This document shows, piece by piece, positions 696-64,000 of a DNA stretch of 64,000 nucleotides. Both the position numbers and the translations under genes were made by a program. The notes beneath the pieces are model-generated. The model saw only the letters and a list, made by a program, of their open reading frames with translations. It did no database searches and was not told the DNA's origin. How positions within the stretch are numbered: the stretch's first letter is position 1; every line of letters starts with the position of its first letter. Source of the stretch: Eledone cirrhosa (taxonomy: Eukaryota); assembly GCA_964016885.1 (NCBI GenBank), contig OZ024742.1:102548001-102612000 (forward strand), written 5' to 3'.

Positions 696-1220
696 TATCA
701 TTCTGTGTCTTTGTGTGCCTGTGTGTGTGTGTGTGAGTGCTTATCATTCTGTATCTTTGTGTGCGTGTATGTGTGTGTGCCTGTATGTGTGTGTGCGTGT
801 GTGTGCGTGTGTGCGTGCGTGTGCGTGCGTATGTGTGTGCGTGTGTGTGTGTGCGCTTATCATTCTGTGTCTGTGTGTGTGAGTGTGTGTGTGTGCTTAT
901 CATTCTGTGTTTGTGTGTGAGTGTGTGTGTGTTTATGTGTGTGCGCTTATCATGCTGTGTCTGTGTGTGAATGTGTGTGTGTGCTTATCATTCTGTGTTT
1001 GTGTGTGTGTGCGTGTGTGTGTGTTTATGTGTGTGTGTGCTTATCATTCTGTGTTTGTGTGTGTGTACGTGTGTGTGTGTTTATGTGTGTGTGTGCTTAT
1101 CCTTCTGTGTCTGTATGTGTGTGAGTGTGTGTGTGTGTTTATCATTCTGTGTTTGTGTGTGTGTATGTGAATGCGTGTATGTGTGTTTATGTGGTGTGTA
1201 CTTATCATTCTGTGTTTGTA
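585..1220. repeat. Compound minisatellite: GCTTATCATTCTGTG anchor with variable (GT)n
   Basis: About 12 anchor copies separated by GT tracts of differing length. Confidence 0.9.
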
Positions 1221-1511
1221 TGCGTGTGTGTGTGTTTATGTGTGTGCATGTGTATGTTTCCCTATATTTGCTATATATGTGTGTATGTCACTGTACTAAT
1301 GTGCGGCTGTTACAGCCCCCCCCCCCCCGTCTCTCGACACTCACCTACTTATCTGTTTCATGTGTGTCTCACCTTCAGTCGTTTGATCGCAAACACACAC
1401 ATATACAATACATATATATGCATACACACACACACGTATAGATATAGATATACATACCCACATATATATACACACACATATATATATAAATATATATATA
1501 TACACACACAC

Positions 1512-1555
<44 letters not shown>

Positions 1556-1700
1556 CCATACATATATATATATACATATCCACACATATATATATACACA
1601 CACACATAAATATACATATATATATATATACACACACACACACATATATATCTACATACCCACATATTATATATACACACACACATATATATACACACAC

Positions 1701-1735
<35 letters not shown>

Positions 1736-1776
1736 TATATATATATATACATACCCACATATATATATACACACAC

Positions 1777-1821
<45 letters not shown>

Positions 1822-2323
1822 TATATATATATATGTGCATGTATGCATATATGCATATATATATATATATACACACATACATATCTACATATATATATAT
1901 ACACATATATACCTACATATATATCATATTTAATGTGTGGTGTGTATAAATAAGAAATCTTTTTTAAAAAATCCATAAATACACGTGTATTAATAGACAC
2001 ATGCACACACACACACACACTCACATTCACACACAGACACATTCACACACACTCACATTCACACACAGACACATCAACACACACTCACATCCACACACAC
2101 ACACATTCACACACAGACACAATCACACACAGACACGTCCACGCACATACACATACACACACACACACTCACTCATCTATTCAACTATAAACATATATAT
2201 AAATATATATATATATATATAATCATTAAACTTATGTAATAAGTGCCTGATAAAAAATCCATATACACACATGTACTAACACACAGACACGCACACACAC
2301 CACACCACACGTACCACACCACA

Positions 2324-2360
<37 letters not shown>

Positions 2361-2613
2361 AGATACACTTTCTCTCTTCTCTCTATCTTACACACTCTCT
2401 CTCTCAGTGGTTAAACAAAGAAAATATTCCGGAATACAGCTAGCCATGTTTGGGATATATAAGCAATAAAGACTGTACAGTATTGTCTGTGTTGTGTAGG
2501 ATAGGGGGTGGCGGCGGGGAGTGCAGTAAGGGTGCAGCAATCTGCATCAGCAGCAGCAACAATCACCAACACCACCATCGCCATCACTAACGCTACGGCC
2601 TCCTTCGCCTTCT

Positions 2614-2657
<44 letters not shown>

Positions 2658-2694
2658 TCTTGAACTGAACCCTTTTCCTCCTCTCTGAACCCTT

Positions 2695-2755
<61 letters not shown>

Positions 2756-2792
2756 TCTTGAACTGAACCCTTTTCCTCCTCTCTGAACCCTT

Positions 2793-2865
<73 letters not shown>

Positions 2866-3351
2866 AATGAAAAACGAAGCTGCAATGCCTTACAAAGCCT
2901 ACTTGGCAAGCTGATGACACTCATTGATAAAAAGGGGCTGTAATAATCTGATAAACTAGGGTCGTCGTGGCAACGAACGAACAAACCGGCAGTTGTGGTA
3001 GCGGTGGTGGCGGTGGTGGTGGTGGTGATGGTGGCTGGCTGGTTTTCCGGGCTGGCGGATGGGTCTGTCAGGCTGGCTGGTTTGGCAGGCTACTTGATTG
3101 GCTGGCTGGCTGGTTTGCTGGCTGGCTGGTCCGTTGGTTGGCTGGCTTGCTGGTCTTGGGCTTGATAGTTGGTCTGTGGGCTAGTTGGCTGGACTTTGGG
3201 TTAGTTGGCTGGGCTTTGGGTTAATTGGTAGGCCTGTAGGCAGGTTGGCTGGCCTTTGGGCTGGCTGACTGGTCTGTGGGCTGGCTGATTGACTGGCCCG
3301 TTGGTTGATTGGTTGGTTGATGGGTCGTCTCTTCAATGTTCGTTCCCCTCA

Positions 3352-4226
<875 letters not shown>

Positions 4227-4470
4227 TGCACAGACATACATACACCCGCCATTTGGGATTACAGCAGTCCTACAACTAACTGATCCTGCTGGGACATTAC
4301 AACGGGAAATGAAATATAAGGGAGCTGGATGGAGAGGGACTCTCTCTCCCCTTTTCTCCTTCCACTTCTCTTTCTCTCAAAGTATTTATCTATCTATTTA
4401 TCTCTTTTTCCCTGTCTTTCTCACCCAATCTCTCTCTCTATCTCTTTCCCCCTCTTTCTCACACAACCTC

Positions 4471-4533
<63 letters not shown>

Positions 4534-12099: not shown

Positions 12100-13097
12100 T
12101 TGTGGTAGTGGTGGTGGTGGTGGTGGTGGTGGTGGTGGTTGTGGTGGTGGTGGTGGTGGTGGTGGTGGTGGTGGTGGTGGTGATAGTGGTGGTGGTGGTG
12201 GTGGTGGTGGTAGTGGTGGTGGTGGTGGTAGTGGTGGTGGTGGTGGTGGTGGTGGTGGTGGTGGTGGTGGTGGTGGTGGTGGTGGTGGTGATGGTAGTGG
12301 TGGTGATGGTAGTGGTGGTGGTGGTGGTGGTGGTGGTAGTGGTGGTGATGGTGGTGGTGGTGGTGGTGGTAGTGGTGGTGATGGTGGTGATGGTAGTGGT
12401 GGTGGTGGTGATGGTGGTGGTGGTGATTGTGGTGATGGTGGTGGTGGTGATGGTGGTGACGGTGATGGTGGTGATGGTGGTGGTGATGGTAGTGATGGTG
12501 GTGGTGGTGATGGTGGTGATGGTGGTGGTGGTGGTGGTGGTGGTGATGGTAGTGATGGTGGTGGTGGTGATGGTGGTGATGGTGGTGGTGGTGGTGGTGA
12601 TGGTAGTGATGGTGATGGTAGTGATGGTGGTGGTGGTGATGGTGGTGATGGTGGTGGTGGTGGTGGTGGTGGTGATGGTAGTGATGGTGGTGGTGGTGAT
12701 GGTGGTGATGGTGGTGGTGGTGGTGGTGGTGATGGTAGTGATGGTGGTGGTGGTGATGGTGGTGATGGTGGTGGTGGTGGTGGTGGTGGTGATGGTAGTG
12801 ATGGTGATGGTAGTGATGGTGGTGGTGGTGATGGTGGTGATGGTGGTGGTGGTGGTGGTGGTGGTGATGGTAGTGATGGTGGTGGTGGTGATGGTGGTGG
12901 TGGTGGTGGTGGTGATGGTAGTGATGGTGATGGTAGTGATGGTGGTGGTGGTGATGGTGGTTATGGTGGTGGTGGTGGTGGTGGTGGTGATGGTAGTGAT
13001 GGTGGTGGTGGTGATGGTGGTGATGGTGGTGGTGGTGGTGGTGGTGGTGATGGTAGTGATGGTGGTGGTGGTGGTGGTGATGGTAGTGATGGTGATG
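12100..13097. repeat. (GGT)n array with GAT/AGT higher-order units
   Basis: Recurring GATGGTAGTGATGGTGGTGGTGGT. Confidence 0.95.
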
Positions 13098-15699: not shown

Positions 15700-16560
15700 C
15701 ATAGTGGTGGTGGTGGTGGTGGTGGTGGTGTTGATGGTGTTGGAGGTGGTGGTGGTGGTGGTGGTGGTGGCGGTGGCGGTGGTGGTGGTGGTGGTGGTGG
15801 TGGTGGTGGTGGTGATGGTGGTGGTGGTATGGTGGTGATGATGTTCATCATCATCATCGTCATCATCATCGTCGTCTTTGTCGTCGTCATCATCATTATA
15901 GTTATTATCTCTGTTTTCGTTATCATCATCATCATCATTAACGTCACCATTATTGTCAGCGTCACCTTACTCTCCCTCCTCCCCCTACTCCACATCACCA
16001 TCATTACCACCACCACTACCACCACCACTACCACCACCACCACTACCACCACCACCACTATCACCACCACCATCACTACCACCACCACTATCACCACCAC
16101 CACCACCACCACCACCACCATACCACCACCACCACCACTATCACCACCACCATCACTATCACCACTACCACCACTACCACCACCACCGATACCACCACCA
16201 CTATCACCACCACCACCACCACCACCATACCACCACCACCACCACTACCACCACCACCACTATCACCACCACCATCACTACCACCACCACTATCACCACC
16301 ACCATCACTATCACCACCACCACCACTACCACCACCACCGATACCACCACCACTATCACCACCACCACCACCACCACCACCACCATACCACCACCACCAC
16401 CACTATCACCACCACCATCACTATCACCACCACTACCACCACCATACCACCACCACCACCACTACCACCACCACCAACATCATCACCACCATACCACCAC
16501 CAACACCACCACCACCACCACAATCATCATCATCATCATCGCTATAATCAACACTATCAA
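15700..16560. repeat. (GGT)n, (ATC)n, (ACC)n compound array
   Basis: Read directly. The strand polarity flips within the array. Confidence 0.9.
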
Positions 16561-16749
16561 CACTATCAGCCCTCTCTTCCCCTGCCCCTAGCCACACCCT
16601 ATCGTGTAAGGGATCTTCTATTCAGTAGTGTTGTCCAGGGAACCCCACCATGCCCGGGAACAAAGCTGGGAAGGTCATAGATGGAATGTCTTTGATCATT
16701 CGGCAGCTGGAACTAAACAGCATTAACAAATACAATAACAAATAATCTT

Positions 16750-17219
16750 CTTGTTGTTGTTGTAGTTGTTATTGTAGTTGTTGTTGTTGCTGTTGCTCTT
16801 GTTGTTGTTGTTGTTGTTGTTGTTGTTGCTTTTGTTGTTGTTGTTTTGTTGTAGTTGTTGTTGTTGTTGTAGTTGTTGTTGTAGTTGTTATTGTTGTTGT
16901 TGTTTTGTTGTAGTTGTTGTTGTAGTTGTTATTGTTGTTGTTGCTCTTGTTGTTGTTGTTGTTGTTGTAGTTGTTGTTGCTCTTGTTGTTGTTGTTGTTG
17001 TTGTTGTAGTTGTTGTTGTTGTTGTTGTTGTTCTTGTTGTTGTTGTTGTTGTTGTAGTTGTTATTGTTGTTGTTGCTCTTGTTGTTGTTGTTGTTGTTGC
17101 TGTAGTTGTTGTTGTTGTTGTAGTTGTTATTGTTGTTGTTGTAGTTGTTATTGTAGTTGTTGTTGTTGCTGTTGCTCTTGTTGTTGTTGCTGTAGTAGTT
17201 GTTGTTGTTGCTGTTGCTC

Positions 17220-17257
<38 letters not shown>

Positions 17258-17372
17258 GCTTTTGTTGTTGTTGTCGTCGTTGTAGTTGTTGTTGTTGTTG
17301 TAGTTGTTGTTGTTGTTGTTGTTGTTGTTGCTGTTGCTTTTGTTGTTGTTGTTGTTGTTGCTGCTGTTGCTT

Positions 17373-17404
<32 letters not shown>

Positions 17405-17603
17405 GCTGTTGTTGTTGTTGTTGTTGTTGTTGTTGCTGCTGTTGCTTTTGTTGTTGTTGTTGTAGTTGTTGTTGTTGTTGTTGTTGTTGCTTTTGTTGTT
17501 GTTGTTGTTGTTGTTGCTGCTGCTGTTGCTTTTGTTGTTGTTACTGTTGTTGCTGTAGTTGTTATTGTTGTTGTTGTTGTTGCTGCTGCTGCTGGTGTTG
17601 CTT

Positions 17604-17656
<53 letters not shown>

Positions 17657-17732
17657 ATTGTTGTTGTTGTTGTTATTGTGGTTGTTGTTACTGTTGTTGC
17701 TGTAGTTGTTATTGTTGTTGTTGTTGCTGTAG

Positions 17733-17767
<35 letters not shown>

Positions 17768-18080
17768 GCTGCTGCTGTATTTGTTATTGTTATTGTTGTT
17801 GTTGCTGCTGCTTTTGTTGCCATAGTTGTTTTGTTGTTGTTGTTGTTACTGTTGCTGTTATTGTTGTTACTGCTTTTGTCGTCGTTGTTGTCAATGTTGT
17901 TGTAATTGTTGTTATTGCTGTTGTTGTTGATATTATTATTACTATTGTAGTTGTTATTGCTGTCGTTCCTGTTATTATAGTTATTGTTGTTGTTGTTGCT
18001 GTAGTTGTTACTATTGTTGTTATTGTTGCTGTTGCTGTTATTATTGTTGTTGCTGTTGCTGTAGATGTTGCTGTTGTAGT
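16750..18080. repeat. (GTT)n array
   Basis: Read directly. Confidence 0.95.
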
Positions 18081-18305
18081 TTAGCTCTTTACGAGCCCCC
18101 ATTATACCGACCCCTGATTAATGACCTTCCAGTCGTGGCTATCCCAACTACTATATCGGAGGACATTCATTTTGCTATTACAGTAAATTGTGATTTGGTG
18201 ACGATTCTGCTGCTATTTCTAGCAGATGAAGTGATCACATAAAGGCTCTCCCCATGGTGGTAGTGGTGGTGGTGAGGGTAATAATGAAACTGGTGGGGTG
18301 GCATT

Positions 18306-18367
<62 letters not shown>

Positions 18368-19404
18368 TTGTTTATTGTTGTTTAGCCCCAGGTCAATATT
18401 CATTGAGTAAACCTATGCTCAAACGTAAAACGTGTTCTAACCGATTTTTTCAAGGGCGTTAGATGTAGTGGTGGTGGTGGTGGTGGTAGTGGTGGTGGTG
18501 TTGGTGACGGTGGCAGTGGTGGTGATAGTTATGGTGGTGGTGGTAGTGGTAGTTGTAGTGGTGGTGGTGGTAGTGGTAGTTGTAGTGGTGGTGGTAGTGG
18601 TGGTGGTAGTGGTGACGGTGGCAGTGGTGGTGATAGTTATGGTGGTGGTGGTAGTGGTAGTTGTAGTGGTGGTGGTAGTGGTAGTGGTGGTGGTAGGTTT
18701 ACATTATGTAATGTGTCCTTTAGTTATGACGGTAGGGCGTGGTTTGAGGGAGATTTCACTGATACTTTCTAGCAGATCAAGATGCCTTATAGGGGCTCCC
18801 TCGTTAGTACTGGTTATTGTAGTGTTGCTGGTGGTGGTGTTGGTAATGATGGTGGTGATGGTGGTGGTGATGGTGATGGTGGTGGTATAGGTAGTGCTGA
18901 TGGTGGTGGTAGTGGTAGTGGTAATGGTGGTGGTGGTAGTTGTGGTGGTGGTACGGGTGATGATAGTAGTGGTGGTGGTGATGGTGATGGTAGTAGTGGT
19001 GCTAGTGGTGATGGTGGTAGTGATGGTGGTGGTAGTGGTGATGGTGGTGGTGGTGATGATAGTAGTGGTGGTGGTGATGGTGATGGTAGTAGTGGTGGTG
19101 GTGGTGGTGATGGTAGTAGTGGTGGTAGTGGTGATGGTGGTGGTGATGCTGGTGGTGGTGGTGGTAGTGGTGATGGTGGTGTTGATAGTGGTGATGATAG
19201 TAGTGGTGGTGGTGATGGTGATGGTAGTAGTGGTGGTGGTGGTGGTGATGGTGCTGGTGGTGCTGGTGGTGATGGTAGTAGTGGTGGTGGTGATGGTGAT
19301 GTTAGTAGTGGTGGTGGTAGTGGTGAAGGTGTTTGTTGTGATGATAGTGGTAGTAGTGGTATTGGTGGTGGTGGTGGTGGTTGTGGTGGTGGTTGTGGTA
19401 ATGG

Positions 19405-19435
<31 letters not shown>

Positions 19436-20710
19436 GGTGGTGGTGGTGGTAGTAATGGTGGTGGTGGTGGTGGTGTTTGTTCAGTCCCAGGCCAATCTCT
19501 ATCGAACCGACCTATAATGAAAGGCGTCTCGACCGAGACCATCCCGACATTTTCCAAATGACAGAGAACCCAAAACCTCAATATTGAACGGGCCGTTTGT
19601 CTGCTATTTCAAGCAGGCCGAGAAACCACCTAGAGGTCTTTTGATTTGCCCAGTGTTTGCGGTTTGTTATTTGTGATAGTAATAGGGGCGGGGAGGGTAA
19701 TGAAAGAGCGAAAGTGAGAGATGGGGGCTAAGGTGGGGGTGGGGAAGTGGGGGATAGAGGGATGACACTAGCAGAGAAGGCAGTAACCATGACAACGTAC
19801 ATCACAGACCCCTCCCCTTCGCGGCCCACACACTTACTCCGTAATGGTCAGGTCGTTACGACTTGTAACAAAAAGTGGAACTGGGAGGGTAGGAAATAAT
19901 CGCTGTTGATGTTGGTATTGATGATGATGGTGATGATGGTGTTGATGGTATTGGTGGTGATGGTGGTGATGAGGATGATGGTGGTGGTAGTGGTGGTGAT
20001 AATAGTGTTATTGATGATGGTAGTGATGGTGATGGTGTTGATGATGATGATGGTAGTGATGGTGTTGGTGATGGTGGTGATGATGGTGGTGGTAGTGGTG
20101 GTGATAATAGTGTTATTGATGATGGTAGTGATGGTGATGGTGGTGGTGGTGGTGGTGGTAATGATGGTGACGTTTATGATGATGGTGATAATTATGATGC
20201 TACTGATGGTAATGGTGGTGGTAGTTTTCTAATCGAACTGTTATAATGGTGGTCGTGACATTTTTGTTATTGTTGTTGTTTTGTCCCAGGTCAGACCAGA
20301 TCAAGTAGACCTATCTATGATCAAAGACATTCCAGCCGTGACAAATTCGTTTTATTTTCAGACTTAGTTTAATCTCAGAATATATAATCTAATAAGTCCT
20401 TAACTTTTTTCAAGACAATGAAAGTGTGATATGAGGGAGATTTGGCTGCTATTTCTAACAGGCTTAACGACCATATTCACGTTGATGTTGATGTTGTTAT
20501 TGTTGTTTGTTTAGTCCTTCGCCCTCACCCCTCTCCCATATCTAGGTCAATTTATTATGAGAGACATTCCAACCATGACCATCCAATCTTTTTATACAGT
20601 ATCTAAAGTAAATAATATTACGTGTTCCTCTCTTTTTAAAACAGTAGTTGTTTGAGAAGGATTTAGCTGTTGTTTCTAAAAGGTTGATCCATCACATATA
20701 CTGTCTCGTT
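18080..20710 (-). mobile_element. Several decayed copies of an (AAC)n-tailed interspersed repeat
   Basis: CCCAGGTCA..GACCTAT..CATTCCAGCC..GGGAGATTTGGCTGCTATTTCTAAC recurs at ~18080-18255, 18380-18805 (split by GGT), 19480-19640, 20270-20480 and 20510-20710. Also at 33620-33820 and, inverted, at 16600-16740. Confidence 0.6.
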
Positions 20711-21049: not shown

Positions 21050-24600
<3,551 letters not shown>

Positions 24601-24871
24601 CAACTACAATGTATGTAATACTGAGGTCGATAGCTATCCATTGTTGACCTGTATTTCTTATGTCAGACGCTATGTCAACACACACGTGCACGCACACACA
24701 GACGCACAGATGCACATACAAACACGCATACACACACACTCACACGCATAAGTATTCACATACACGCACCCTCTCAAACAAAGGAGAAAGTAAATATTGA
24801 ATAAGCACACTCACATACACACATACATACACATTCATATATACATACATACAAACATACATATATATTTA

Positions 24872-42810: not shown

Positions 42811-43044
42811 GTAAACTATCGCCGTATTTTAACTAAAGAAATTAAAGAAATTATATAAATATATATATAGAGAGAGAGAAATTCCCGAGTTGTGTCGGAG
42901 GGTAACCATAGTTAAAGAAAGTACTCAATACATTGGTAGAGTATAAGCATCTTTATTATATATAGAAATGATTTCTAGAAGACTAGAACTGTTTCATATG
43001 AATCAAACAGTTCTAGTCCTGTATAAGTATGTATAAATGTGTGT

Positions 43045-43535
43045 GTGTATGTATGTATGTATGTATGTATGTATGTATGTATGTATGTATGTATGTATGT
43101 ATGTATGTATGTATGTATGTATGTTTGTATGTATGTATGTATGTATGTATGTATGCATGTATGTATGTATGTATGTATGTATGCATGTATGTATGTATGT
43201 ATGTATGTATGTATGTATGCATGTATGTATGTATGTATGTATGTATGCATGTATGTATGTATGTATGCATGTATGCATGTATGTATGTATGTATGTATGT
43301 ATGTATGCATGTATGTATGTATGCATGTATGCATGTATGTATGTATGCATGTATGTATGCATGTATGTGTGTATGCATGTATGTATGTATGTATGTATGT
43401 ATGTATGTATGTATGTATGCATGTATGTATGTATGTATGTATGTATGTATGTATGTATGTATGTATGCATGTATGTATGTATGTATGTATGCATGTATGT
43501 ATGTATGTATGTATGTATGTATGTATGTATGTATG
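43045..43535. repeat. (TATG)n microsatellite
   Basis: Read directly. Confidence 0.95.
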
Positions 43536-44129
43536 TGTGTGTGTGTGTGTGAATATATATGTATGTATATATGGATAACAAAATATCGTCTTCTTTTGAC
43601 TTGGACCGCTTTCCTTGAATTGATTGGCTACACCTGACGTCCACCATTTTATTTCACAGCATGCATCACGTGACCGTCTGCAGGAAAAGAATACTGTTCG
43701 TTTGTTTTTGTTGGTCGACAGAAGATGGCGCAGAGAATGAAGCTAATGGAATGGGTATTCCGTACCGATCTCGACACTGTTGTTGTTATTAAACATAAAA
43801 CATCTTTCATCGAGATGGAAAGAATCTGTTTCGTTTACTTTATTGTTTCTTAACATAATCACCAAATCTTTCCTCTTTTGTCTGGCACTTTCTTGTCTGT
43901 CTGCCAGATTGACTGTCTGTCTGTATGTCTATCTGTCTGTCTGTTTGTCTATCTGTCTGTCTGTCAGTTTCTCTCTAAGCATGTCGCCTTCTCCCATTAC
44001 CCCCTCCCTCTTTTCTTTTTTTACTCTCTCTCTCTCTCCCTCGCTCTTAAAAATAGAGACTATTCAAGATTAATTTGCAAACCATTTGACAAATCGAAAA
44101 ACCTACATACAAATAGAAATATGTATTTA

Positions 44130-45682: not shown

Positions 45683-45847
45683 GTTCTTCTGGTTTCATTA
45701 CTTTATTATGTTTTACCAATAAAGAGAAAGTCGGTTTCTAACATAGACAAGACGCTTTCATTGGAATTTAGACAACATCAACTAGGTAAATATGTCTGCA
45801 TAGATGTTATTGTATGTGTGGATCTGTATGGTTTGAGTTACACGTGC

Positions 45848-45927: not shown

Positions 45928-46583
45928 GTTCTTCTGGTTTTATAATTTCACAAAGTTTTACCAATAGAGAGAGAGTCGGTTTCTAACATAGACACAAGAC
46001 TCTCTCATTGGAATTTACACAACATCAACTAGGTAGATATGTATGTATGCATGCATGTGTAGATATGGATGTTATTGTATGTGTGGATGTGTATGTTTTG
46101 AGTTGTATGTGTGCATGTGTATATGCTTTGTATCTGTACATGTGTATATGCAGTTATTAGATGCAACATTTTTGGAATGTTTTACATATTTTTACTGTTC
46201 CATTAATGGATTGTACTTGTAATTTCCTAACTAGTTGTGTTCTTTCTGTTCCTGTGAAGCCTAGCTTCTCAATATTTGTATTGAGGCAGTTACTAACATA
46301 TCCCAGTGCCCCAATAATCACAGGCATAAATCTGAAGGTGTAATCAGGGTGGAGTATCTGCAGATTTCTCATCAGTTCTGCATAAATATTCTCCTTTTCA
46401 CTAATCTTTGATATTATATTGGCATCTGCTGGGCAGCTAATTTCCACTACTGTGCATGTTTTCTTCTCCCTGTCCCATATCATAATATCTGGTCTGTTAT
46501 GCCTGCATTTTATTGGGGTTTTTACTGGAACATTCCACCAGTACTCTTTCATATTATGTACATGGATGTCTTCCACATTGTTG
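45928..46583 (-). mobile_element. R4/Dong family B, 5'-truncated copy (RLE domain + 3' UTR)
   Basis: Translation KEYWWNVPVKT..HNRPDIMIWD..VVEISCP..KENIY..PVIIGALG is homologous to but diverged from family A. Flanked by (TATG)n. Confidence 0.9.
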
Positions 46584-46616
46584 TATGTATGTATGTATGT
46601 ATGTATGAATGTATGT

Positions 46617-46937
46617 ATGATGTTGACTTGTTCTTCTTTTTGGTAAATATCATCTCGGTTAAGAGAGTGGGACTGGCTTTGTGCAGTGCCTTTGCTCACT
46701 ATAAAAGCTTCACGGCACAGGCATTGCTTTATATCTGGAGATCTCTCTGCACTTGTTGTCACATGGTACCATGGGCCCTGCACTGTGTCAATAATTGTCA
46801 CAAGTGTAGTGTTTGTACCAGAGTTTTCAAGTCGCTGGCTGGACTAAAAAGTCACACTCGTTCAGCGCATCGGTAGGGGTTCTCCTACATGGATATAAAG
46901 TAGTGGCCGTACTCGAAAACGAGTTGGCAGCCACCAT
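46617..46937 (+). mobile_element. RTE-derived non-autonomous element, 5'-truncated
   Basis: Reverse complement of 49477-49800. C2H2 finger codons at 46796-46876, followed by an (ATGT)n tail. Confidence 0.75.
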
Positions 46938-46962
46938 GTATGTATGTATGTATGTATGTATG

Positions 46963-47816
46963 TTTTCTCTTTCTCTTAATTTCGAGTATATTTTTTTGAC
47001 CGGCCACCTTCCTGGTGGCAAGGTTGTAAAAGAAAAGAAATTGTCATCCCTTGAATCGCAAGAATGTTTTGCATATTTTGAAGGTGCCAGCTATCGCAGC
47101 CATTTGTAGACTATGAATTAGGGAGCTGCGCTTTTTGTCCGCAAATCCAAGTTCGGTCATACTTTGGTCCAAGCGGGTTGGTATATAACCCGTAGCACCA
47201 ATAATGATGGGTATGAAGCTAAAGGTGTATCTTGGATACTGGATTTGTAAGCTCCTCATCAATGGTCCGTAGATGTCCTCCTTCTCCTGTATTTTTCTGA
47301 CAACGTTTACATCAAGTGGGCAGCTGATCTCCACAACAGAACACGTTTTCAATGTGTGGTCCCAAACTACAATATCAGGCCGGTTGTGCTTTAATTTGGT
47401 GGCAGTTTTTATTTTCAGGTTCCACCAGTATTCCTTAGTGCCATCTGTCTCAATATATTCTTCCTCGTTTGTTGTTAATTTTGTTTTCCGAAGTGCGTTC
47501 CAGATAGTTCTAGCTATCCCATCGTGTCTCATGGGGAGGTAGTAGCGAGATGACATTCTTTCGCAGCTGGCAACAATGTGGCTTACATCCTCGATCTTTG
47601 TTTTACATAGCCTACATTTATTGTCAGCTGCTGGCCCTCCTCTTTTGTGCAGCAGATATTTGGTAGGGAGTTCTTGTTCCTGTATTGCATAGAGATATCC
47701 CTCAAGGTGTGATGTCATAAACTTGTCGGAACTCCATGCCAGGCTTTTTGAGTGGTTTATCCCCTCTATGGTCTGTGTTTTACGCCTCAAGTATCCATGC
47801 ACAACTTTCTCTGTAA
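46963..47816 (-). mobile_element. R4/Dong family A, 5'-truncated copy (CCHC + RLE + 3' UTR)
   Basis: The 252-aa ORF 47044..47802 is nearly identical to the C-terminus of the long copy. Flanked by (TATG)n on both sides. Confidence 0.93.
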
Positions 47817-47982: not shown

Positions 47983-48510
47983 GTCGGGTCACACTTGAGT
48001 GCTACTGGTAACATGTAACCCAGTGCAACATGTCGCATGCCCGGGTCGTCGGCGACTAAACCGGAAACCCCACCAAGTTTGAGGAGGGGGATTTTGGACA
48101 CCCTGCAGGACAAAAAACAAAACCTGACAAAGGGCGGAAGAACTCATAAGAGTCAACGGCCATCCAAAAGTGTGTAAATATGTATATACACATGTACCAC
48201 GCGGTTAAACCACTGGGAGTGAAGGACCCCTAGTCTTTATCAGGGCATTCTTCTAGGAGAAGGCAACTCAGGAAACTGGGATAACTCCGATATAAAAGCT
48301 GCGGCTCAGTAGTTACCGATGATGTTGATCTTTTCTTCTTTTCGGGTTATAGCTACTGTCGCTCAGAGAGTGGGATTGGCTCAGTGCACAGTCTTTCCTC
48401 ACTTTAAAAAATACCTTCACGCACAAGCATTGCTTGATAGAATTAACTAATAATTATTAATAATGGTATATCGTGAAATGACCATACTCGATAACGAGGG
48501 GGCAGCCATC
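47983..48510 (+). mobile_element. RTE-derived non-autonomous element, subfamily 2
   Basis: Same 5' module (GCTACTGGTAACATGTAACCCAGT..GGCGACTAAACCGG). Ends CTCGATAACGAGGGGGCAGCCATC plus TATG. Confidence 0.72.
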
Positions 48511-48554: not shown

Positions 48555-49113
48555 GTCAGGTCGCTTTTCAGCGCTACTGGTTACATGTAACCCAGTACAA
48601 CCTGTACATGGTCGGTCGTCGGCGACTAAACCGGCAACCCCATCAAGCTTGCTTAGTGAGGTGGGTGATTTTGGACACCCTGTGGAATGGAAAACAAAAA
48701 CCGGTCAAAAGACGGAGGAACTCAGGAGAGTCAACGGCCATCCAATAAAGTTTTTTTTTTTTTTGTGGAGTGAGAGACTCCTACTCTTCATTAAAACATT
48801 TCTCTGGGAGAAGGTCACTCTGATATAAAACCTGTCACTTCGTTTGCATCCAACGATGTACACCAGTTCTTCTCTTTTGGTAAATGCATTCGATGTTGAG
48901 AGAGTGGGATTGGCTTCGTGCAAATCCTTTCCTCATTTAAAAAAGCTTCAAGCCCAGGCATCGCTTTTTTTTTTTACGATGCATGACATTTTTTTACGAT
49001 GCATGGCATTGTTGGCCATAGGCAAGTCCCTAGCAGGACAAAAAAGCCACGTCTGTGATACTCAAGCTTAAGTATCAAGCGATGGCATTATTCGAAATCG
49101 CGTTGCAGCCATC
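48555..49113 (+). mobile_element. RTE-derived non-autonomous element, subfamily 3
   Basis: Same 5' module, a KSLAGQKSH finger remnant, a GCAGCCATC end and a (TATG)n tail. Confidence 0.7.
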
Positions 49114-49188: not shown

Positions 49189-49476
49189 TTATTATCTCTT
49201 TCTCTTAATTTCGAGTATATTTTTGACCGGCCACCTTCCTGGTGGCAAGGTTGTAAAAGAAAAGGAATTGTCATCCCTTGAATCGCAAGAATGTTTTGCA
49301 AATTTTGAAGGTGCCAGCTATCGCAGCCATTTGTAGACTATGAATTAGGGAGCTGCGCTCTTTGTCCGCAAATCCAAGTTCAGTCATACTTTGGTCCAAG
49401 CGGGTTGGTATATAACCCGTAGCTCCAATAATGATGGGTATGAAGCTAAAGGTGTATCTTGGATACTGGATTTGTA
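49189..49476 (-). mobile_element. R4/Dong family A, short 3' copy
   Basis: Near-identical to 50730-51015. The 3' end lies in the (TATG)n tract. Confidence 0.9.
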
Positions 49477-50087
49477 CATGGTGGCTGCCAACTCGTTTTC
49501 GAGTACGGCCACTACTTTATATCCATGTAGGAGAACCCCTACTGATGCGCTGAACGAGTGTGACTTTTTAGTCCAGCCAGCGACTTGAAAACTCTGGTAC
49601 AAACACTACACTTGTGACAATTATTGACACATAGTGCTGGACCCATGGTACCATGTGACGACAAGTGCAGAGAGATCTCCAGATATAAAGCAATGCCTGT
49701 GCCGTGAAGCTTTTATAGTGGGCAAAGGCACTGCACAAAGCCAGTCCCACTCTCTTAACCAAGATGATATTTACCAAAAAGAAGAACAAGTCAACATCAT
49801 TGGATACCATCAGGGTTGCAGGTGTTATATCAGAGTTTTCCTTCTCCTAGAATTCTGCCTTGACAAAGGCTAAGGGGTCATCTCTCCCGGTGATTTTGGA
49901 TGGGCATTGACTCTTAAGAGCTCCTTTGCCCTTTGACAGGTTTGGTTTTTAGTCCTGCAGGATGTCTAAAGTCACCCTCCTCACCAAGCAACCTTGGTGG
50001 GGTTGCCAGTTTAGTCGCCAACGACACGAACATGAGACAGGTTGTACTGGGATACATGTTACCAGTAGCACCAACTGGTGACCTGAC
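49477..50087 (-). mobile_element. RTE-derived bipartite non-autonomous retroelement, apparently full length (~610 bp)
   Basis: 5' part is shared with 47983 and 48555. 3' part encodes CSVCTRVFKSLAGLKSHTRSAH (RTE-type C-terminal C2H2 finger), then a CTCG-N4-CGAG stem-loop and GGCAGCCACCATG. Confidence 0.75.
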
Positions 50088-50570
50088 ATACACACATACA
50101 TACATACATACATACATACATACATACATACATACATACATACATACATACATACATGTACATACATCCATACATACATACATGTACATACATGTACATA
50201 CATGTACATACATACATACATACATACATACATGTACATACATGTACAGGATTTGTTCATACATACATACATATGTATGTATGTATGTACATGTATGTAT
50301 GTACATGTATGTACATGTATGTTCATGTATGTACATGTATGTACATGTATGTACATGTACATACATGTACATACATACATGTACATACATACATACATAC
50401 ATACATACATACATACATACATACATACATACATACATACATACATGTATATACATGTACATACATGTACATACATGTACATACATGTACATACATACAT
50501 ACATACATACATACATACATACATACATACATACATGTACATACATACATACATGTACAGGATTTGTACA

Positions 50571-50628
<58 letters not shown>

Positions 50629-50729
50629 CAAATCCTGTACATGTATGTATGTATGTACATGTATGTACATGTATGTACATGTATGTACATGTATGTACAA
50701 GTATGTACATGTATGTATGTACATGTATG

Positions 50730-53604
50730 TTTTCTCTTTCTCTTAATTTTGAGTATATTTTTTGACCGGCCACCTGCCTGGTGGCAAGGTTGTAAAAGAA
50801 AAGAAATTGTCATCCCTTGAATCGCAAGAATGTTTTGCAAATTTTGAAGGTGCCAGCTATCGCAGCCATTTGTAGACTATGAATTAGGGAGCTGCGCTTT
50901 TTGTCCGCAAATCCAAGTTCAGTCATACTTTGGTCCAAGCGGGTTGGTTTATAACCCGTAGCACCAATAATGATGGGTATGAAGCTAAAGGTGTATCTTG
51001 GATACTGGATTTGTAAACTCCTCATCAATGGTCCGTAGATGTCCTCCTTCACCTGTATTTTTCTGACAACGTTTACATCAAGTGGGCAGCTGATCTCCAC
51101 AACAGAACACGTTTTCAATGTGTGGTCCCAAACTACAATATCAGGCCGGTTGTGCTTTAATTTGGTGACAGTTTTTATTTTCAGGTTCCACCAGTATTCC
51201 TTAGTGCCATCTGTCTCAATATATTCTTCCTCGTTTGTTGTTAATTTTGTTTTCCGAAGTGCGTTCCAGATGGTTCTAGCTATCCCATCGTGTCTCATGG
51301 GGAGGTAGTAGCGAGATGACATTCTTTCGCAGCTGGCAACAATGTGGCTTAAATCCTCGATCTTTGTTTTACATAGCCTACATTTATTGTCAGCTGCTGG
51401 CCCTCCTCTTTTGTGCAGCAGATATTTGGTAGGGAGTTCTTGTTCCTGTATTGCATAGAGATATCCCTCAAGGTGTGATGTCATAAACTTGTCGGAACTC
51501 CATGCCAGGCTTTTTGAGTGGTTTATCCCCTCTATGGTCTGTGTTTTACGCCTCAAGTATCCATGCACAACTTTTTCTGTAAATTGGTCAATTTTTTTTT
51601 CTTGTTTGAACATTGAATAGGATCTTCGGATTTCTCTGGGTGAGAGATTTATATCGGGCTTTATTCCATATCTCTCCTCCAGATCAGTCGCTATTCTAAT
51701 GATATTTCTTTTTTCATAGTCATAAACCTGGGCAAGATGGTTGCCAACCTTTTTCCTCTGTTGAAGGTGTTGCTTCAGTGTCACTATCCGGGTCTCATAT
51801 GTTGTTAATATTGATTTTAGACCCCGGCCACCTTCCTTGCGTGAGAAGTATAGCCTATCCACATCACCATTGATGTTAAAGTTCCCAGTAACACTGAGAA
51901 GTTTTCGAGTTCTAACATCCATCTCACTTAGTTCTTGCAATGACCAGTTCAGTAGGCCAAATGTTGGCGTTAGAATTGGCACAGCATAAGTATTGTGGGC
52001 AATGTATTTGTTGTATGCTGACAGTTCTGATGACCATATTTTCTTTACTCTTCTGAGGTATTCAGTTCTGGTTCTCTCCTTATTTATGGGTCCATCATAT
52101 CTGACATTCTCATCCTGTCCAAGATATCTGTAGTTGTCACCTGACTGCAGAGGTTGTATTGTCAGGCCGTTCATCTCTAGATTTCTAGAGGAGGGCACAG
52201 CTCTTCCACGTTTTACTGCCAAATATGCACACTTGGACTCACCAAATTTCATTTTGATGTCGGTTGAAAATTGTGTAATGAGGTCCAATTGTTTCTTGAT
52301 GTCATTGATATTTGGCCCATACAACTTCAGGTCATCAACAAAGAAAAGATGGGAGATACTTCTGGTCCCACTTCTTTGTCGACCTTGTTTCCTGAGTAGG
52401 TAAGATAGTGGATTCAGTGAGAGAACGAAGAGAAGCACCGACAAGCTATCACCCTGAAAGATGCCCTTCTGGTAATGTATCTTATCAGTCCTAACCTGCT
52501 CCTTCTCACCCCTAAGGATCAAACTGGTGTACCAGTTCTTGGTCAGGCGTTCAACAGCAGCTACCAATGGTTGTGGGACTTTAGCTAACTGTAAAGCCTT
52601 AACAATCCACCCATGAGGTACACTATCAAATGCTTTTTGATAGTCCAGCCACACGACAGTCATGTTTCTGCGATTCTTTGTTGTTTTTTCCTGAATCATT
52701 TTGTTAGTTAGTAGGTGATCTATGCAACCCCACACCTCCCTCTTTCCACCAGCTTGCTCAGGTGTTATGATGTTGTTGGTAGCACAGTGATCCTGTAAGA
52801 ACAGGTTAAGGCACCCAGTATATAATTTATACATGATGTTTTGGCAGGCAATTGGGCGGTAATTTTTAGCAAGGGTGGTTTGGCTATTTTTGGGAATGAG
52901 GAGAGTAGAGGCAGTTGATAACCATCTGGGCAGTTCTTGTGTGCCCTTAATGGTTTCTGTAAACAGCCGTATGAGATCTTGCCGATAGAAAGTGAAATTC
53001 TTCAACCAGTATCCTGTAATGAGGTCTGGGCCTGGCGATTTCCTATTCGACATTTTCTGTAGAGCTGTTTCCAGTATTGACCCATCTATGTCATATTGTT
53101 TTGTCTGGACATGTTGGCAGTAGTCCTGTTCCAGTTCTTTTAGCCAATTAGCTTGTCTGTTGAATCCGTCATCCGTTTCCCATACAGATCTCCAGTAGCT
53201 CTCAACCTGTTCTTTTGAAGGGGTGTCATTTACAGAGATTGAGCTTTTGCCACCGAAGCTGCGATAAACTGATTTAGGATCTCTGGCAAACAATCTATTT
53301 AGCACTTGTCGTTTATGTGCTGTTGACTTATATTTTAGTCTTTCTGTTGTAGCTGTGAGTTGTTGTTTCAACTGGTGTAATTTGGAGTTCAAAGTTTTAA
53401 ATTTGGTATCTCCAAATCGTCTCTCTAACTTTTTCTTTAGGTCTTCCTGGTGTTGTGTGAAGTTGCTCTCTATGTTGCATTTCATAACGACTGCGATGTG
53501 TGAGATACTTCGTCTCAGGGACAAAATTTTGGTTTTTAAATTTCGCATCCACGCTGGTTCAGGCTTTCTGTTTGTATCTTGATTGCGTGGTTTTAGATGT
53601 GTGT

Positions 53605-53606
<2 letters not shown>
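50730..53606 (-). mobile_element. R4/Dong family A, long copy inserted in (TACA)n
   Basis: ORF followed by an ~80-nt 3' UTR with a GCCACC-N5-GGTGGC hairpin. Both ends run directly into TACA-type repeats. Confidence 0.93.
50810..53606 (-). CDS. R4/Dong-clade non-LTR retrotransposon polyprotein (RT + CCHC + restriction-like endonuclease), 5'-truncated, no internal stops
   Basis: RT motifs NYRPIAC, EQAGG, WLDYQKAFDSVPH, GIFQGDSLS, LFFVDDLKLY, YRYLG and RLYFSRKEGGRGL. Zinc knuckle CRLC..H..C, RHD motif, and RPDIVVWD..VVEISCP..KEDIY. The track's N-terminus (53607-53785) is read-through into the microsatellite and the adjacent repeat. Confidence 0.95.
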
Positions 53607-53636
<30 letters not shown>

Positions 53637-53755
53637 TGTATGTATGTATGTATGTATGTATGTATGTATGTATGTATGTATGTATGTATGTATATATGTA
53701 TGTATGTACATGCATGTACATGTATGTATGTACATGTATGTATGTATGTATATAT

Positions 53756-53884
53756 GTTGGTGCTACTGGTAACAACCTGTCCCATGGTCGGGTCGTTGGT
53801 GACTAAAATGGCAACCCCACCAAGGTTTCTTGGTGAGGAGGGTGACTTTAGACATCCTGTAGGACTAAAATAAAACCTGTCAAT
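53756..53884 (+). mobile_element. 5' fragment of the RTE-derived non-autonomous element
   Basis: Matches the reverse complement of 49935-50075. Flanked by TATG repeats. Confidence 0.7.
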
Positions 53885-54399
53885 GTACGTATGTATGTAT
53901 GTATGTTTGTTTGTATGTATGTGTGCATGTAATTATGTATGCATGTGTATATGTAGGTATTAGTTATGTGTGTGTATGTGTGTGTGTATGTATGTGTGTA
54001 TATGTATGTGTGTGTTTATGTATGTATGTATTTATGTATACATGCATGTCTGTCTGTATGCATGTATGTTTCTATGTAAATGTATGTATGTACGTATGAA
54101 TGGATGGATGTATATATGTATGTAGTTATGTATTATGTATGTTTATATGTATGTATATATGTAATTATGTATGTATGCATGTATGTATTCATGTATATAT
54201 GTTAGGTGAATATGTATGTATGTACGTAGGTAAGTATATATGTATATATATATATATGTATATATATATATAGATATAGATATATATGTAAAAGTTCTAT
54301 TTAAATTGTTGGGATACAACAAGCAAATATTTTTATAACTGATATAAAGCACTCAACAAATAATTGGAGTAAAAATACGATATTAACGATGTTAATACC

Positions 54400-63612: not shown

Positions 63613-63614
<2 letters not shown>
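63337..63614 (-). mobile_element. RTE-derived non-autonomous element subfamily 2, 5'-truncated
   Basis: Reverse complement of 48240-48510, embedded in (CATA)n. Confidence 0.75.
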
Positions 63615-63660
<46 letters not shown>

Positions 63661-64000
63661 ACATACATACATACATACATACATACATACATACATACAT
63701 TCAAACATACATACATACACACATACATACATACATACATGCATGCATACATACAAACATACATACATACATACATACATACACACACACATACATACAT
63801 ACATACATACATACATACATGCATACATACATGCAAACATACATACATACATACATACATACATACATACACACATACATACATACAAACATACATACAC
63901 ACATACATACATTCAAACATACATACACACATACATACATACACACATACATACATACATACATACATACATGCATACACACATACACACACACACACAC

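What the first reader, a model, noticed from the sequence alone, without database searches (positions are those of the whole stretch)
50730..53606. Young R4/Dong element with apparent (TACA)n specificity
Seen: ~930 stop-free codons with intact RT, CCHC and PD-(D/E)xK motifs, and three near-identical copies with the same 3' junction. Established: the R4 clade includes site-specific members, and Dong targets TAA repeats. Inference: this is a recently active family with a tetranucleotide target. This copy lacks its N-terminus, so it is probably not autonomous.
Basis: partly seen in the sequence, partly recalled or inferred. Interest (0 to 1): 0.72.

Follow-up and report, generated by a model that had tools for sequence, protein, structure and literature searches.

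The report
Jumping gene homing to ACAT repeats
This is a front-truncated copy of a very young, high-copy jumping gene (a LINE with a restriction-like nuclease); nearly all sampled copies sit inside (ACAT)n simple repeats facing one way, so it likely homes to that repeat, a new target for an already known kind of repeat-seeking element.

Summary
Window 50730-53610 (minus strand) holds 933 stop-free codons with RT, CCHC and a restriction-like endonuclease (RLE). Two shorter copies (98.6% and 97.2% identical) end at the same 3' junction.

It is a 5'-truncated copy (positions 1148-4028) of a 4028-bp single-ORF non-LTR retrotransposon.
- The genome holds at least about 1235 3' ends and 634 5' ends of the family.
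- All 80 scored matches are 99-100% identical.
- 13 of 20 long copies are full length, and 6 keep an intact 1169-aa ORF.

(ACAT)n is the target, not only the tail.
- 29 of 38 5' junctions, at many truncation points, abut (ACAT)n.
- None abuts (ATGT)n.
- A second family about 47-56% identical in protein shares this target.

The R4/Dong label is only partly tested.
- The protein is colinear, at about 30% identity, with (TAA)n-tailed Dong-type elements of the same genome.
- It shares their zinc-finger-free three-helix N-terminal domain.
- In my tree it lies in a separate, well-supported lineage.
- No named R4, Dong, HERO or NeSL sequence could be included.

I found no paper giving this target for this group. 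This scan already reported the same thing twice on other DNA of this genome (e1-9521993, e1-9524059). It is a new variant of a known kind, of moderate interest.

The parts
50730..53610 (-). Family-1 copy A: 5'-truncated element, positions 1148-4028 of the 4028-bp full-length element
   Evidence: blastn of the full-length reference (from L033) on the window: 99.4% over 2881 bp; self and sister matches
50810..53611 (-). Remaining ORF: 933 codons plus stop, equal to aa 237-1169 of the intact 1169-aa protein P0002
52142..52897 (-). Reverse transcriptase domain (Pfam RVT_1, aa 239-490 of P0001)
   Evidence: E 6.1e-25; phmmer to solved R2 proteins, E 1.5e-28 to 1.4e-13
51329..51382 (-). CCHC zinc knuckle CX2CX8HX4C
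   Evidence: sequence; H and last C invariant in 52 aligned relatives
50813..51223 (-). Restriction-like (PD-(D/E)xK) endonuclease domain; PD at 51140-51145, invariant K at 51047-51049
   Evidence: P180, D181, K212 invariant; model pLDDT 92.7; Foldseek hits with E<=0.001 are only R2 proteins, best E 6.9e-10, TM 0.67 over 264 columns
50730..50809 (-). 3' UTR, 80 nt, ending ...AAATTAAGAGAAAGAGAAAA
50641..50729 (-). Imperfect (CATA)n/(CATG TACATA)n tail or downstream target tract of copy A
53611..53757 (-). (ACAT)n tract directly upstream of the truncated 5' end of copy A (upstream half of the target)
46963..47816 (-). Family-1 copy B, 854 bp, 5' truncated, (ACAT)n on both sides
49192..49476 (-). 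Family-1 copy C, 286 bp. It has a (ACAT)n tail, but its 5' end abuts the 5' end of an inverted ~600-bp element with no repeat between
45930..46585 (-). 3' 656 bp of a second (ACAT)n-tailed family (family 3); 54% aa identity to family 1 in the RLE region
49475..50085 (+). About 600-bp non-coding element (fam2d) with its own (ACAT)n tail at 50086-50600, inverted relative to the LINE copies. Further pieces lie at 46617-46963(-), 47987-48169(-), 48573-48745(-) and 53772-53883(-)

Best explanation
Window 50730-53610 (minus strand) is a 5'-truncated 2.88-kb copy of a 4.03-kb single-ORF non-LTR retrotransposon (three-helix N-terminal domain, RT, CCHC knuckle, restriction-like endonuclease) whose sampled copies lie inside (ACAT)n repeats in one fixed orientation. 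It likely integrates there by target-primed reverse transcription.

Shown here:
- the anatomy of the element;
- the copy number and youth of the family;
- intact full-length sisters elsewhere in the genome;
- (ACAT)n on both flanks, with strict polarity;
- extra microhomology at truncated 5' junctions;
- a second, distant family with the same target;
- clustering of copies into arrays.

Inferred by analogy with R2 and Dong:
- The protein would bind the (ACAT)n duplex, probably through the N-terminal Myb/SANT-like three-helix domain.
- The endonuclease would nick the (ATGT)n strand.
- The (ACAU)n 3' tail of the RNA would anneal to the nicked strand and prime cDNA synthesis.
- Incomplete copying would give dead-on-arrival copies such as this one.
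- The cDNA end would be joined to the upstream repeat through short homology.
- Each insertion leaves a new (ACAT)n tail that can be hit again, which would explain the stacked arrays, including the one at window 45.7-53.9 kb.

By architecture it is a Dong-type (R4/Dong-like) element with a new target motif, but the clade assignment is not proven.
For: Anatomy:
- RVT_1 at E 6e-25.
- Intact 1169-aa ORF in L033.
- C-terminal model with pLDDT 92.7. All 7 Foldseek hits at E<=0.001 are R2 proteins.
- N-terminal model with three helices at pLDDT about 90.
- By entry title, about 27 of the 50 best VIA rows are Myb/SANT/trihelix DNA-binding domains. The best is Zeste, Z 5.8, rmsd 2.4 over 63 residues.

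Family size and age:
- 1235 first-look candidates for the 3' 300 bp and 634 for the 5' 300 bp. All 40+40 scored are 99-100% identical.
- 13 of 20 long loci are full length, at 98.3-99.75% identity. 6 have an intact ORF.

Target:
- 12 of 12 long copies have the repeat directly before the same 5' end AAAATGGCGACC.
- 29 of 38 5' alignment starts have at least 85% (ACAT)n in the 20 nt upstream. 0 of 38 have (ATGT)n.
- 25 of 34 3' ends are followed by (ACAT)n and 0 of 34 by (ATGT)n.
- (ACAT)n tracts cover only 1.3% of even this repeat-rich window.

Microhomology: 13 clean junctions overlap the repeat phase by a mean of 1.6 nt, against 0.40 at random. 6 of 13 overlap by at least 2 nt, against 7.7% at random.

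Second family: family 3 is 47-56% identical in protein over most of its length (29% at the N-terminus). It has (ACAT)n before its 5' end and as its tail.

Kinship with Dong-type elements: three elements at about 30% identity, one of them colinear from aa 20 to 1169; the two with readable ends carry (TAA)17 and (TAA)9 tails, and the N-terminal domain is shared.
Against: - 9 of 38 5' starts fall under the 85% threshold. Most of these are degenerate (ATAC/AT)n or have a few extra bases. One is a BLAST split inside an element (L010). Two to three have no repeat at all: L031, window copy C and partly L009.
- No biochemical step was tested.
- The Myb/SANT reading is weak. Pfam finds nothing in the N-terminus, a profile search of PDB sequences finds nothing, Foldseek has no hit at E<=0.001, and a VIA Z of 5.8 is within the range of common helical arrangements.
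- No HDV-like 5' ribozyme, reported for R4 and Dong (PMC3774820, passages), was found.
- In the tree the (ACAT)n families are not nested among the (TAA)n elements, and no named R4/Dong reference was included.
- The sample of copies is the best-scoring 30 of at least 1235, so it is biased towards the youngest.
Confidence: 0.82

Rival explanations
1. The mechanism and target are the same, but the lineage is not R4/Dong. It would be a HERO-like lineage or a so far unnamed clade of RLE retrotransposons that acquired microsatellite targeting on its own.
For: - The (ACAT)n families sit in a 27-row clade (100% SH-aLRT). It is separated from the (TAA)n-tailed elements and from the named insect relatives.
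- Identity to the (TAA)n elements is only about 30%.
- Some HERO families are reported to be microsatellite-specific (PMC4640811, passage citing a Repbase Report that I could not read).
- No HDV-like ribozyme was found.
Against: - The protein is colinear with (TAA)n Dong-type elements from aa 20 to 1169, including the conserved zinc-finger-free N-terminal domain. This is the architecture PMC7998251 (passages) gives for R4/Dong.
- Similarity to R2 is limited to the RT region by sequence.
- In Octopus vulgaris it is Dong-R4, not Hero, that has over 1000 recent insertions averaging about 4.2 kb (PMC13282606, Table 1 passage). This is indirect: the species of this genome is unknown to me.
Confidence: 0.2
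2. (ACAT)n is only the element's own 3' tail. Insertion is random, and the upstream repeats are chance or come from tandem duplication of copies.
For: - Every copy carries the tail.
- Some upstream tracts are the tails of earlier copies (L004, L007, L045).
- Window copy C and L031 lack an upstream repeat.
Against: - 29 of 38 5' junctions at many different truncation points abut (ACAT)n, and none abuts (ATGT)n.
- Several tracts are preceded by unrelated unique sequence, for example L035.
- Copies are dispersed over at least 5 large contigs, so they are not local duplications.
- Landing in older tails is itself repeat targeting.
Confidence: 0.03
3. Insertion is random, but only copies that land in harmless microsatellites persist (passive accumulation, as proposed for Waldo-A/B near CA repeats).
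For: Passive accumulation is discussed for other LINEs (PMC3812793, passage).
Against: - The copies differ by about 1% or less, which is too young for purifying selection to have removed nearly all others.
- Selection does not explain the strict strand polarity (0 of 38 and 0 of 34 in the opposite sense).
- It does not explain the junction microhomology either.
Confidence: 0.03

Closest known systems
[quoted passage not shown]
   Same: - Single ORF with RT, CCHC and RLE.
- No N-terminal zinc finger, but a diverged three-helix (Myb/SANT-like) N-terminal domain.
- Inserts into a microsatellite, and its tail is the same repeat.
- (TAA)n-tailed relatives in this same genome are colinear with it at about 30% identity (PMC7998251 and PMC3812793, passages).
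   Different: - The target is the tetranucleotide (ACAT)n, not (TAA)n.
- It lies in a separate, strongly supported lineage in my tree.
- No HDV-like 5' ribozyme was detected.
R2 (28S rDNA-specific RLE retrotransposons; solved structures 9dou, 9nl3, 9nl2, 8gh6, 8ibw-z)
   Same: - RT detectable by sequence.
- The C-terminal linker, zinc knuckle and RLE superpose, TM 0.61-0.68.
- Target-primed reverse transcription at a repeated target is the working model.
   Different: - No N-terminal zinc fingers.
- The target is a microsatellite, not rDNA.
- Sequence similarity is confined to the RT region.
Waldo (R1 clade), specific for (ACAY)n microsatellites
   Same: Nearly the same target repeat (PMC3812793, passage citing Kojima and Fujiwara 2003).
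   Different: Waldo uses an APE-type endonuclease and belongs to an unrelated clade. Here the endonuclease is restriction-like. If both recognise ACAT-type repeats, that is convergence.
Togen ((TG)n-specific, near NeSL) and microsatellite-specific HERO families
   Same: RLE elements that target microsatellites (PMC4640811, passages).
   Different: The target repeat differs. Their relationship to this lineage could not be tested, because no reference sequences were available.

Membership tests
RLE-type (R2-group) non-LTR retrotransposons | Reverse transcriptase of the non-LTR type | tested here: met
   Pfam RVT_1 at E 6.1e-25; phmmer to solved R2 proteins at E 1.5e-28
RLE-type (R2-group) non-LTR retrotransposons | CCHC knuckle and PD-(D/E)xK restriction-like endonuclease C-terminal to the RT; no APE domain | tested here: met
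   Invariant H, C, PD and K. Model pLDDT 92.7. All 7 Foldseek hits at E<=0.001 are R2 C-terminal regions. No APE family among the Pfam hits.
R4/Dong clade | RT groups with named R4 and Dong references in a phylogeny | not testable with these tools
   No named R4, Dong, HERO, NeSL or CRE protein was obtainable. The tree with unnamed relatives and in-genome (TAA)n elements puts it in a separate lineage.
R4/Dong clade | No N-terminal zinc fingers; a diverged Myb/SANT-like N-terminal domain (PMC7998251, passages) | tested here: inconclusive
   No CCHH pattern in the first 236 aa (read by eye). A conserved domain is shared with the (TAA)n elements and the insect relatives. Three-helix model. VIA best Z 5.8, with mostly Myb/SANT/trihelix rows. 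Pfam, PDB profile and Foldseek give nothing significant.
R4/Dong clade | Site-specific insertion into rDNA or a microsatellite, with the tail matching the target | tested here: met
   29 of 38 5' junctions and 25 of 34 3' junctions lie in (ACAT)n; none lies in the opposite sense
R4/Dong clade | HDV-like self-cleaving ribozyme at the 5' end (PMC3774820, passages) | tested here: inconclusive
   No Rfam ribozyme hit at E<=10 or E<=5. My own descriptor search was not above shuffles: 10 of 100 shuffles reached the observed count for family 1, and there were 0 hits for family 3 and fam2d. HDV-like folds are hard to find by sequence.
Dong in the strict sense ((TAA)n-specific) | Target and tail are (TAA)n | tested here: not met
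   Target and tail are (ACAT)n. True (TAA)n-tailed relatives exist elsewhere in the genome.
Waldo (R1 clade) | APE-type endonuclease N-terminal to the RT | tested here: not met
   No APE domain; the endonuclease is C-terminal and restriction-like
HERO clade | RT groups with named HERO references | not testable with these tools
   No reference sequence was available. The Repbase Report on microsatellite-specific HERO, cited in PMC4640811, is not held.

The most novel reading that the evidence does not exclude
A deep lineage of Dong-like RLE retrotransposons has re-aimed a conserved, zinc-finger-free three-helix N-terminal domain from (TAA)n to (ACAT)n. It holds at least two families 47-56% identical in protein, plus dozens of unnamed relatives. 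It lives side by side with active (TAA)n-specific cousins in one genome. That would give a natural matched pair for working out how RLE retrotransposons read a repeat and fix their strand polarity. It would also give a source of new programmable landing sites for R2-style gene insertion tools.
Probability: 0.45. Interest if true: 0.55.

Novelty: new variant of a known kind. Interest (0 to 1): 0.4.

Why it matters
Repeat-specific retrotransposons show how a mobile element can multiply to over a thousand copies without hitting genes. Their proteins are also the basis of current R2-derived tools for site-specific gene insertion.

A very young family with intact copies, a clean tetranucleotide target and strict polarity is a workable system for asking what sets target choice. 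Related (TAA)n-specific cousins in the same genome make comparison and domain swaps possible.

It also explains part of the structure of this genome. (ACAT)n tracts act as nests that grow by repeated insertion, as in the 8-kb array around this copy.

The general habit (Dong-type elements aiming at microsatellites) is already known. So is an ACAY target, for the unrelated Waldo elements.

Tried and rejected
- **The repeat finder on the whole window.** It was swamped by microsatellites. I replaced it with BLAST in a script.
- I used wrong coordinates, corrected.
- **Rfam.** Only sub-threshold miRNA-like hits on the microsatellites, and no ribozyme.
- **HDV-like descriptor search.** Family 1 gave 16 combinations against 4.7 in shuffles, and 10 of 100 shuffles were as high. 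All used a P1 helix between the upstream repeat and GUGUGUA. Family 3 and fam2d gave none. Not significant.
- **Myb in the N-terminus by sequence.** Pfam found nothing. A profile search of PDB sequences found nothing. Foldseek had no hit at E<=0.001.
- **ESM Atlas.** Only unnamed RVT_1 clusters.
- **Named references.** One search listed 120 of 208 hits. The only names were Argonauta hians, four insects and generic labels, so no named-clade phylogeny was possible.
- **Tree runs.** The mixture-model run and the 'careful' run did not finish on one CPU. I report the quick LG+G4 trees. In one search I had wrongly labelled the L036 upstream element as (ACAT)n. Its tail is (TAA)n, and I corrected this.
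- **Partner of fam2d.** It shows no DNA similarity to family 1 or family 3.
- **Sequencing runs.** No RNA holder is listed, so nothing can be said on expression. Read laying gave contigs only. X1, X3 and X7 cover all 30 bins and X11 covers 15. I draw no conclusion on depth, ends or expression.
- **Papers not held.** PMC2829327, PMC4400214 and PMC307436. Kojima and Fujiwara 2004, Xiong and Eickbush 1993 and the Repbase Reports are known to me only as cited in passages.
- **Rejected readings.** Tail-only, and passive accumulation (see the rival explanations).
Full report
**1. The observation**

The feature lies on the minus strand. A stop-to-stop frame runs 50810..53932, but its upstream end is only microsatellite read as codons. 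The element part, 50810-53611, gives 933 codons and a stop (P0001).
- Pfam finds RVT_1 at aa 239-490, E 6.1e-25. It also finds a sub-threshold zf-RVT match over the CCHC region.
- The knuckle CRLCKTKIEDLSHIVASC lies at 51329-51382.
- BLAST of the element on the window finds three copies in the same orientation. A is 50730-53620. B is 46963-47816, 854 bp, 98.6% identical. C is 49192-49476, 286 bp, 97.2% identical.
- A and B end ...AAATTAAGAGAAAGAGAAAA followed by (CATA)n. C ends ...GAGATAATAA before its tract.

**2. The family and the full-length element**

The last 300 bp gave 1235 first-look candidates in the window's own 3.0-Gb genome. All 40 scored matches were 99-100% identical over 300 of 300 bases, on at least five large contigs.

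I fetched 9 kb around 20 of the 30 loci whose copies ran off the first 3.3-kb loci.
- 13 of these 20 are full length: 4028 bp, 98.3-99.75% identical to the copy in L033.
- 6 of the 13 carry an intact 1169-aa ORF, and one more has 1167 aa.
- The layout is: a 5' end AAAATGGCGACCGTTGTGG..., a 5' UTR of about 440 nt, one ORF (P0002), an 80-nt 3' UTR, then (CATA)n.
- The first 300 bp gave 634 candidates, and all 40 scored were 99-100% identical. Roughly half of the copies therefore reach the 5' end.

Copy A equals positions 1148-4028. It lacks the 5' UTR and the first 236 codons, so it is a dead-on-arrival copy of a family that very probably is still active elsewhere.

**3. Target or tail?**

- In 12 of 12 long loci inspected, the repeat sits directly before the conserved 5' end.
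- I then took all family-1 alignments of at least 90% identity in the loci held. 29 of 38 5' starts have at least 85% (ACAT)n in the 20 nt upstream, and 0 of 38 have the opposite-sense (ATGT)n.
- 25 of 34 3' ends are followed by (ACAT)n, and 0 of 34 by (ATGT)n.
- The truncation points differ (positions 645, 1278, 1368, 2069, 2351, 2599, ... 3911). The upstream repeat therefore cannot be part of the RNA.

The 9 misses break down as follows:
- Most are degenerate (AT/ATAC)n or have a few extra bases.
- One is a BLAST split inside an element (L010).
- Two to three have no repeat at all: L031, window copy C and partly L009.

Perfect (ACAT)n tracts of 3 or more units cover 1.3% of this already repeat-rich window, so chance does not explain this.

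At 13 clean truncated junctions, the element's first bases continue the phase of the repeat. The mean overlap is 1.6 nt against 0.40 at random, and 6 of 13 overlap by at least 2 nt against 7.7% at random. This fits annealing of the cDNA end to the repeat.

**4. Surroundings**

Window 45.7-53.9 kb is one colonised (ACAT)n nest. It holds:
- two 3' fragments of a second LINE family, family 3 (45685-45795 and 45930-46585);
- three family-1 copies;
- five pieces of a ~600-bp non-coding element (fam2d), which also ends in (ACAT)n.

All are in one orientation except one fam2d (49475-50085, plus strand). That one is followed by (ACAT)n on its own sense strand (50086-50600). So every element has the repeat in the same sense relative to itself.

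Family 3 is 47-56% identical to family 1 in protein over most of its length (29% at the N-terminus). It has its own 5' end (AGTCAAGGCGATCAGTCGC...) and its own 3' end (...ATTATAAAACCAGAAGA), both abutting (ACAT)n.

In the sampled loci, family-1 copies often sit in the tails of family 3, fam2d or other family-1 copies. This is the self-feeding pattern expected when each insertion adds a new target.

**5. The protein**

C-terminal part:
- The C-terminal 290 aa were modelled with 51 relatives, mean pLDDT 92.7.
- All 7 Foldseek hits at E<=0.001 are R2 proteins of zebra finch, a turtle and silk moth. E runs from 6.9e-10 to 1.7e-4, with TM 0.61-0.68 over 260-272 columns.
- The next rows are cap-snatching PD-(D/E)xK nucleases at E>=0.016.
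- H, C, RH, PD and K are invariant in 52 sequences.

N-terminal part:
- The N-terminal 95 aa are conserved across relatives down to 20% identity.
- They fold as three helices at pLDDT about 90.
- Pfam, a profile search of PDB sequences and Foldseek give nothing significant.
- The exhaustive VIA search gives a best Z of 5.8 (Zeste DNA-binding domain, rmsd 2.4 over 63 residues).
- By entry title, about 27 of its 50 best rows are Myb, SANT, trihelix or GARP DNA-binding domains, including DMAP1 SANT.
- That Z is within the range of common helical arrangements, so I call the Myb/SANT reading plausible, not shown.
- It agrees with PMC7998251 (passages). That paper reports a diverged Myb/SANT-like domain and no zinc fingers at the N-terminus of R4/Dong elements.

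**6. Which clade?**

- By sequence, solved R2 proteins match only the RT region (aa 368-848, E 1.5e-28 to 1.4e-13).
- The large protein collection gave 208 relatives, of which 120 were listed. The best unnamed ones are 58-59% identical. Named hits are Argonauta hians (65% over 60% of the query) and four insects at 29-33%.
It holds three elements about 30% identical to P0002, one of them colinear from aa 20 to 1169. The first two end in (TAA)17 and (TAA)9; the third is cut short before its tail. A further copy upstream in L036 also ends in (TAA)n. By their target these are Dong-type elements, and they share the N-terminal domain with family 1.
- The tree has 58 rows and 1032 columns (LG+G4, quick search, SH-aLRT, midpoint root). 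Family 1 and family 3 fall in a 14-row clade (100) inside a 27-row clade (100). The (TAA)n elements and the named insects Diaphorina, Tribolium and Vanessa fall on the other side; Callosobruchus attaches just outside the 27-row clade. The (ACAT)n and (TAA)n labels each need one change.

So the (ACAT)n elements form their own deep lineage, related to Dong-type elements. Whether that lineage lies inside R4/Dong as defined by Repbase cannot be decided here, because no named R4, Dong, HERO or NeSL sequence was available.

Indirect support comes from Octopus vulgaris. There, Dong-R4 has 5 recently active families with 1129 insertions totalling 4.73 Mb, about 4.2 kb each. Hero has 13 insertions (PMC13282606, Table 1 passage).

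The 5' HDV-like ribozyme described for R4 and Dong (PMC3774820, passages) was not found. That is inconclusive for this kind of RNA.

**7. Mechanism**

Shown:
- the anatomy, youth and copy number of the family;
- (ACAT)n on both flanks with strict polarity;
- junction microhomology;
- nesting into arrays.

Inferred from R2 and Dong:
- The protein recognises the repeat duplex, probably with the N-terminal domain.
- The RLE nicks the (ATGT)n strand.
- The (ACAU)n RNA tail pairs with the nicked strand and primes reverse transcription.
- Premature termination gives truncated copies like A, B and C.
- The 5' end is joined through short homology with the upstream repeat.

**8. Comparison and novelty**

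- Microsatellite targeting by RLE elements is known: Dong, DongAg and DongBg in (TAA)n; Togen in (TG)n; some HERO families (PMC3812793, PMC4640811, PMC3636483, PMC7998251; passages only).
- An ACAY target is known for Waldo, an APE-type R1-clade element (PMC3812793, passage).
- Six full-text searches found no paper giving (ACAT)n or (TACA)n as a target of R4/Dong-type elements.
- Kojima and Fujiwara 2004, the Repbase Reports and Repbase itself are not held and may bear on this.
- This scan already reported the same phenomenon on other DNA of this genome (e1-9521993, e1-9524059).

I rate it a new variant of a known kind, of moderate interest.

Noticed in passing
window 49475-50085 (+), 46617-46963 (-), 47987-48169 (-), 48573-48745 (-), 53772-53883 (-); also L033, L031, L039, L041, L046-L049: A ~600-bp non-coding element (5' GGTGGCTGCCAACTCGTTTTCGAG..., 3' ...CACCAAGTGGTGACCTG) always ends in (ACAT)n and sits in (ACAT)n, often next to family-1 copies. 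It shows no DNA similarity to family 1 or family 3, so its autonomous partner is unknown.
   Followed up: partly
window 49475/49476: The truncated 5' end of family-1 copy C abuts the 5' end of an inverted fam2d head to head, with no microsatellite between (...GGCAGCCACCATG|TACAAATCC...). It is one of the few junctions that break the rule. A template switch or a later rearrangement is possible.
   Followed up: no
window 50553-50640: The repeat flips sense from (ACAT)n to (ATGT)n on the plus strand, around a short palindrome GGATTTGTAC...GTACAAATCC. This is where the tails of two oppositely oriented elements meet.
   Followed up: no
window 43027-43573 and 63613-63999: There are long, apparently unoccupied target-type tracts: (GTAT)136 and (ACAT)97.
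   Followed up: no
window 12102-13094, 16006-18081, 18468-19475, 21050-24607: Kilobase-scale trinucleotide arrays ((GTG)n, (ACC)n, (TTG)n, (TGG)n, (GTA)n, (TGT)n) fill about 8 kb. Their origin was not examined.
   Followed up: no
L051+L052 (G000:C3:361859500-361872500); L036 oriented 189-2790: (TAA)n-tailed Dong-type elements, about 30% identical to family 1, stand one behind another in each other's tails. Two open frames of 1012 and 1124 codons remain.
   Followed up: partly
L033 oriented 4459-4520 (5' end of full-length family 1): The upstream repeat UACAUAC can pair with GUGUGUA just after a UCC-GAUAAUC-GGA hairpin. That layout resembles P1/P3 of HDV-like ribozymes that borrow upstream target sequence. 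It was not above shuffles.
   Followed up: partly
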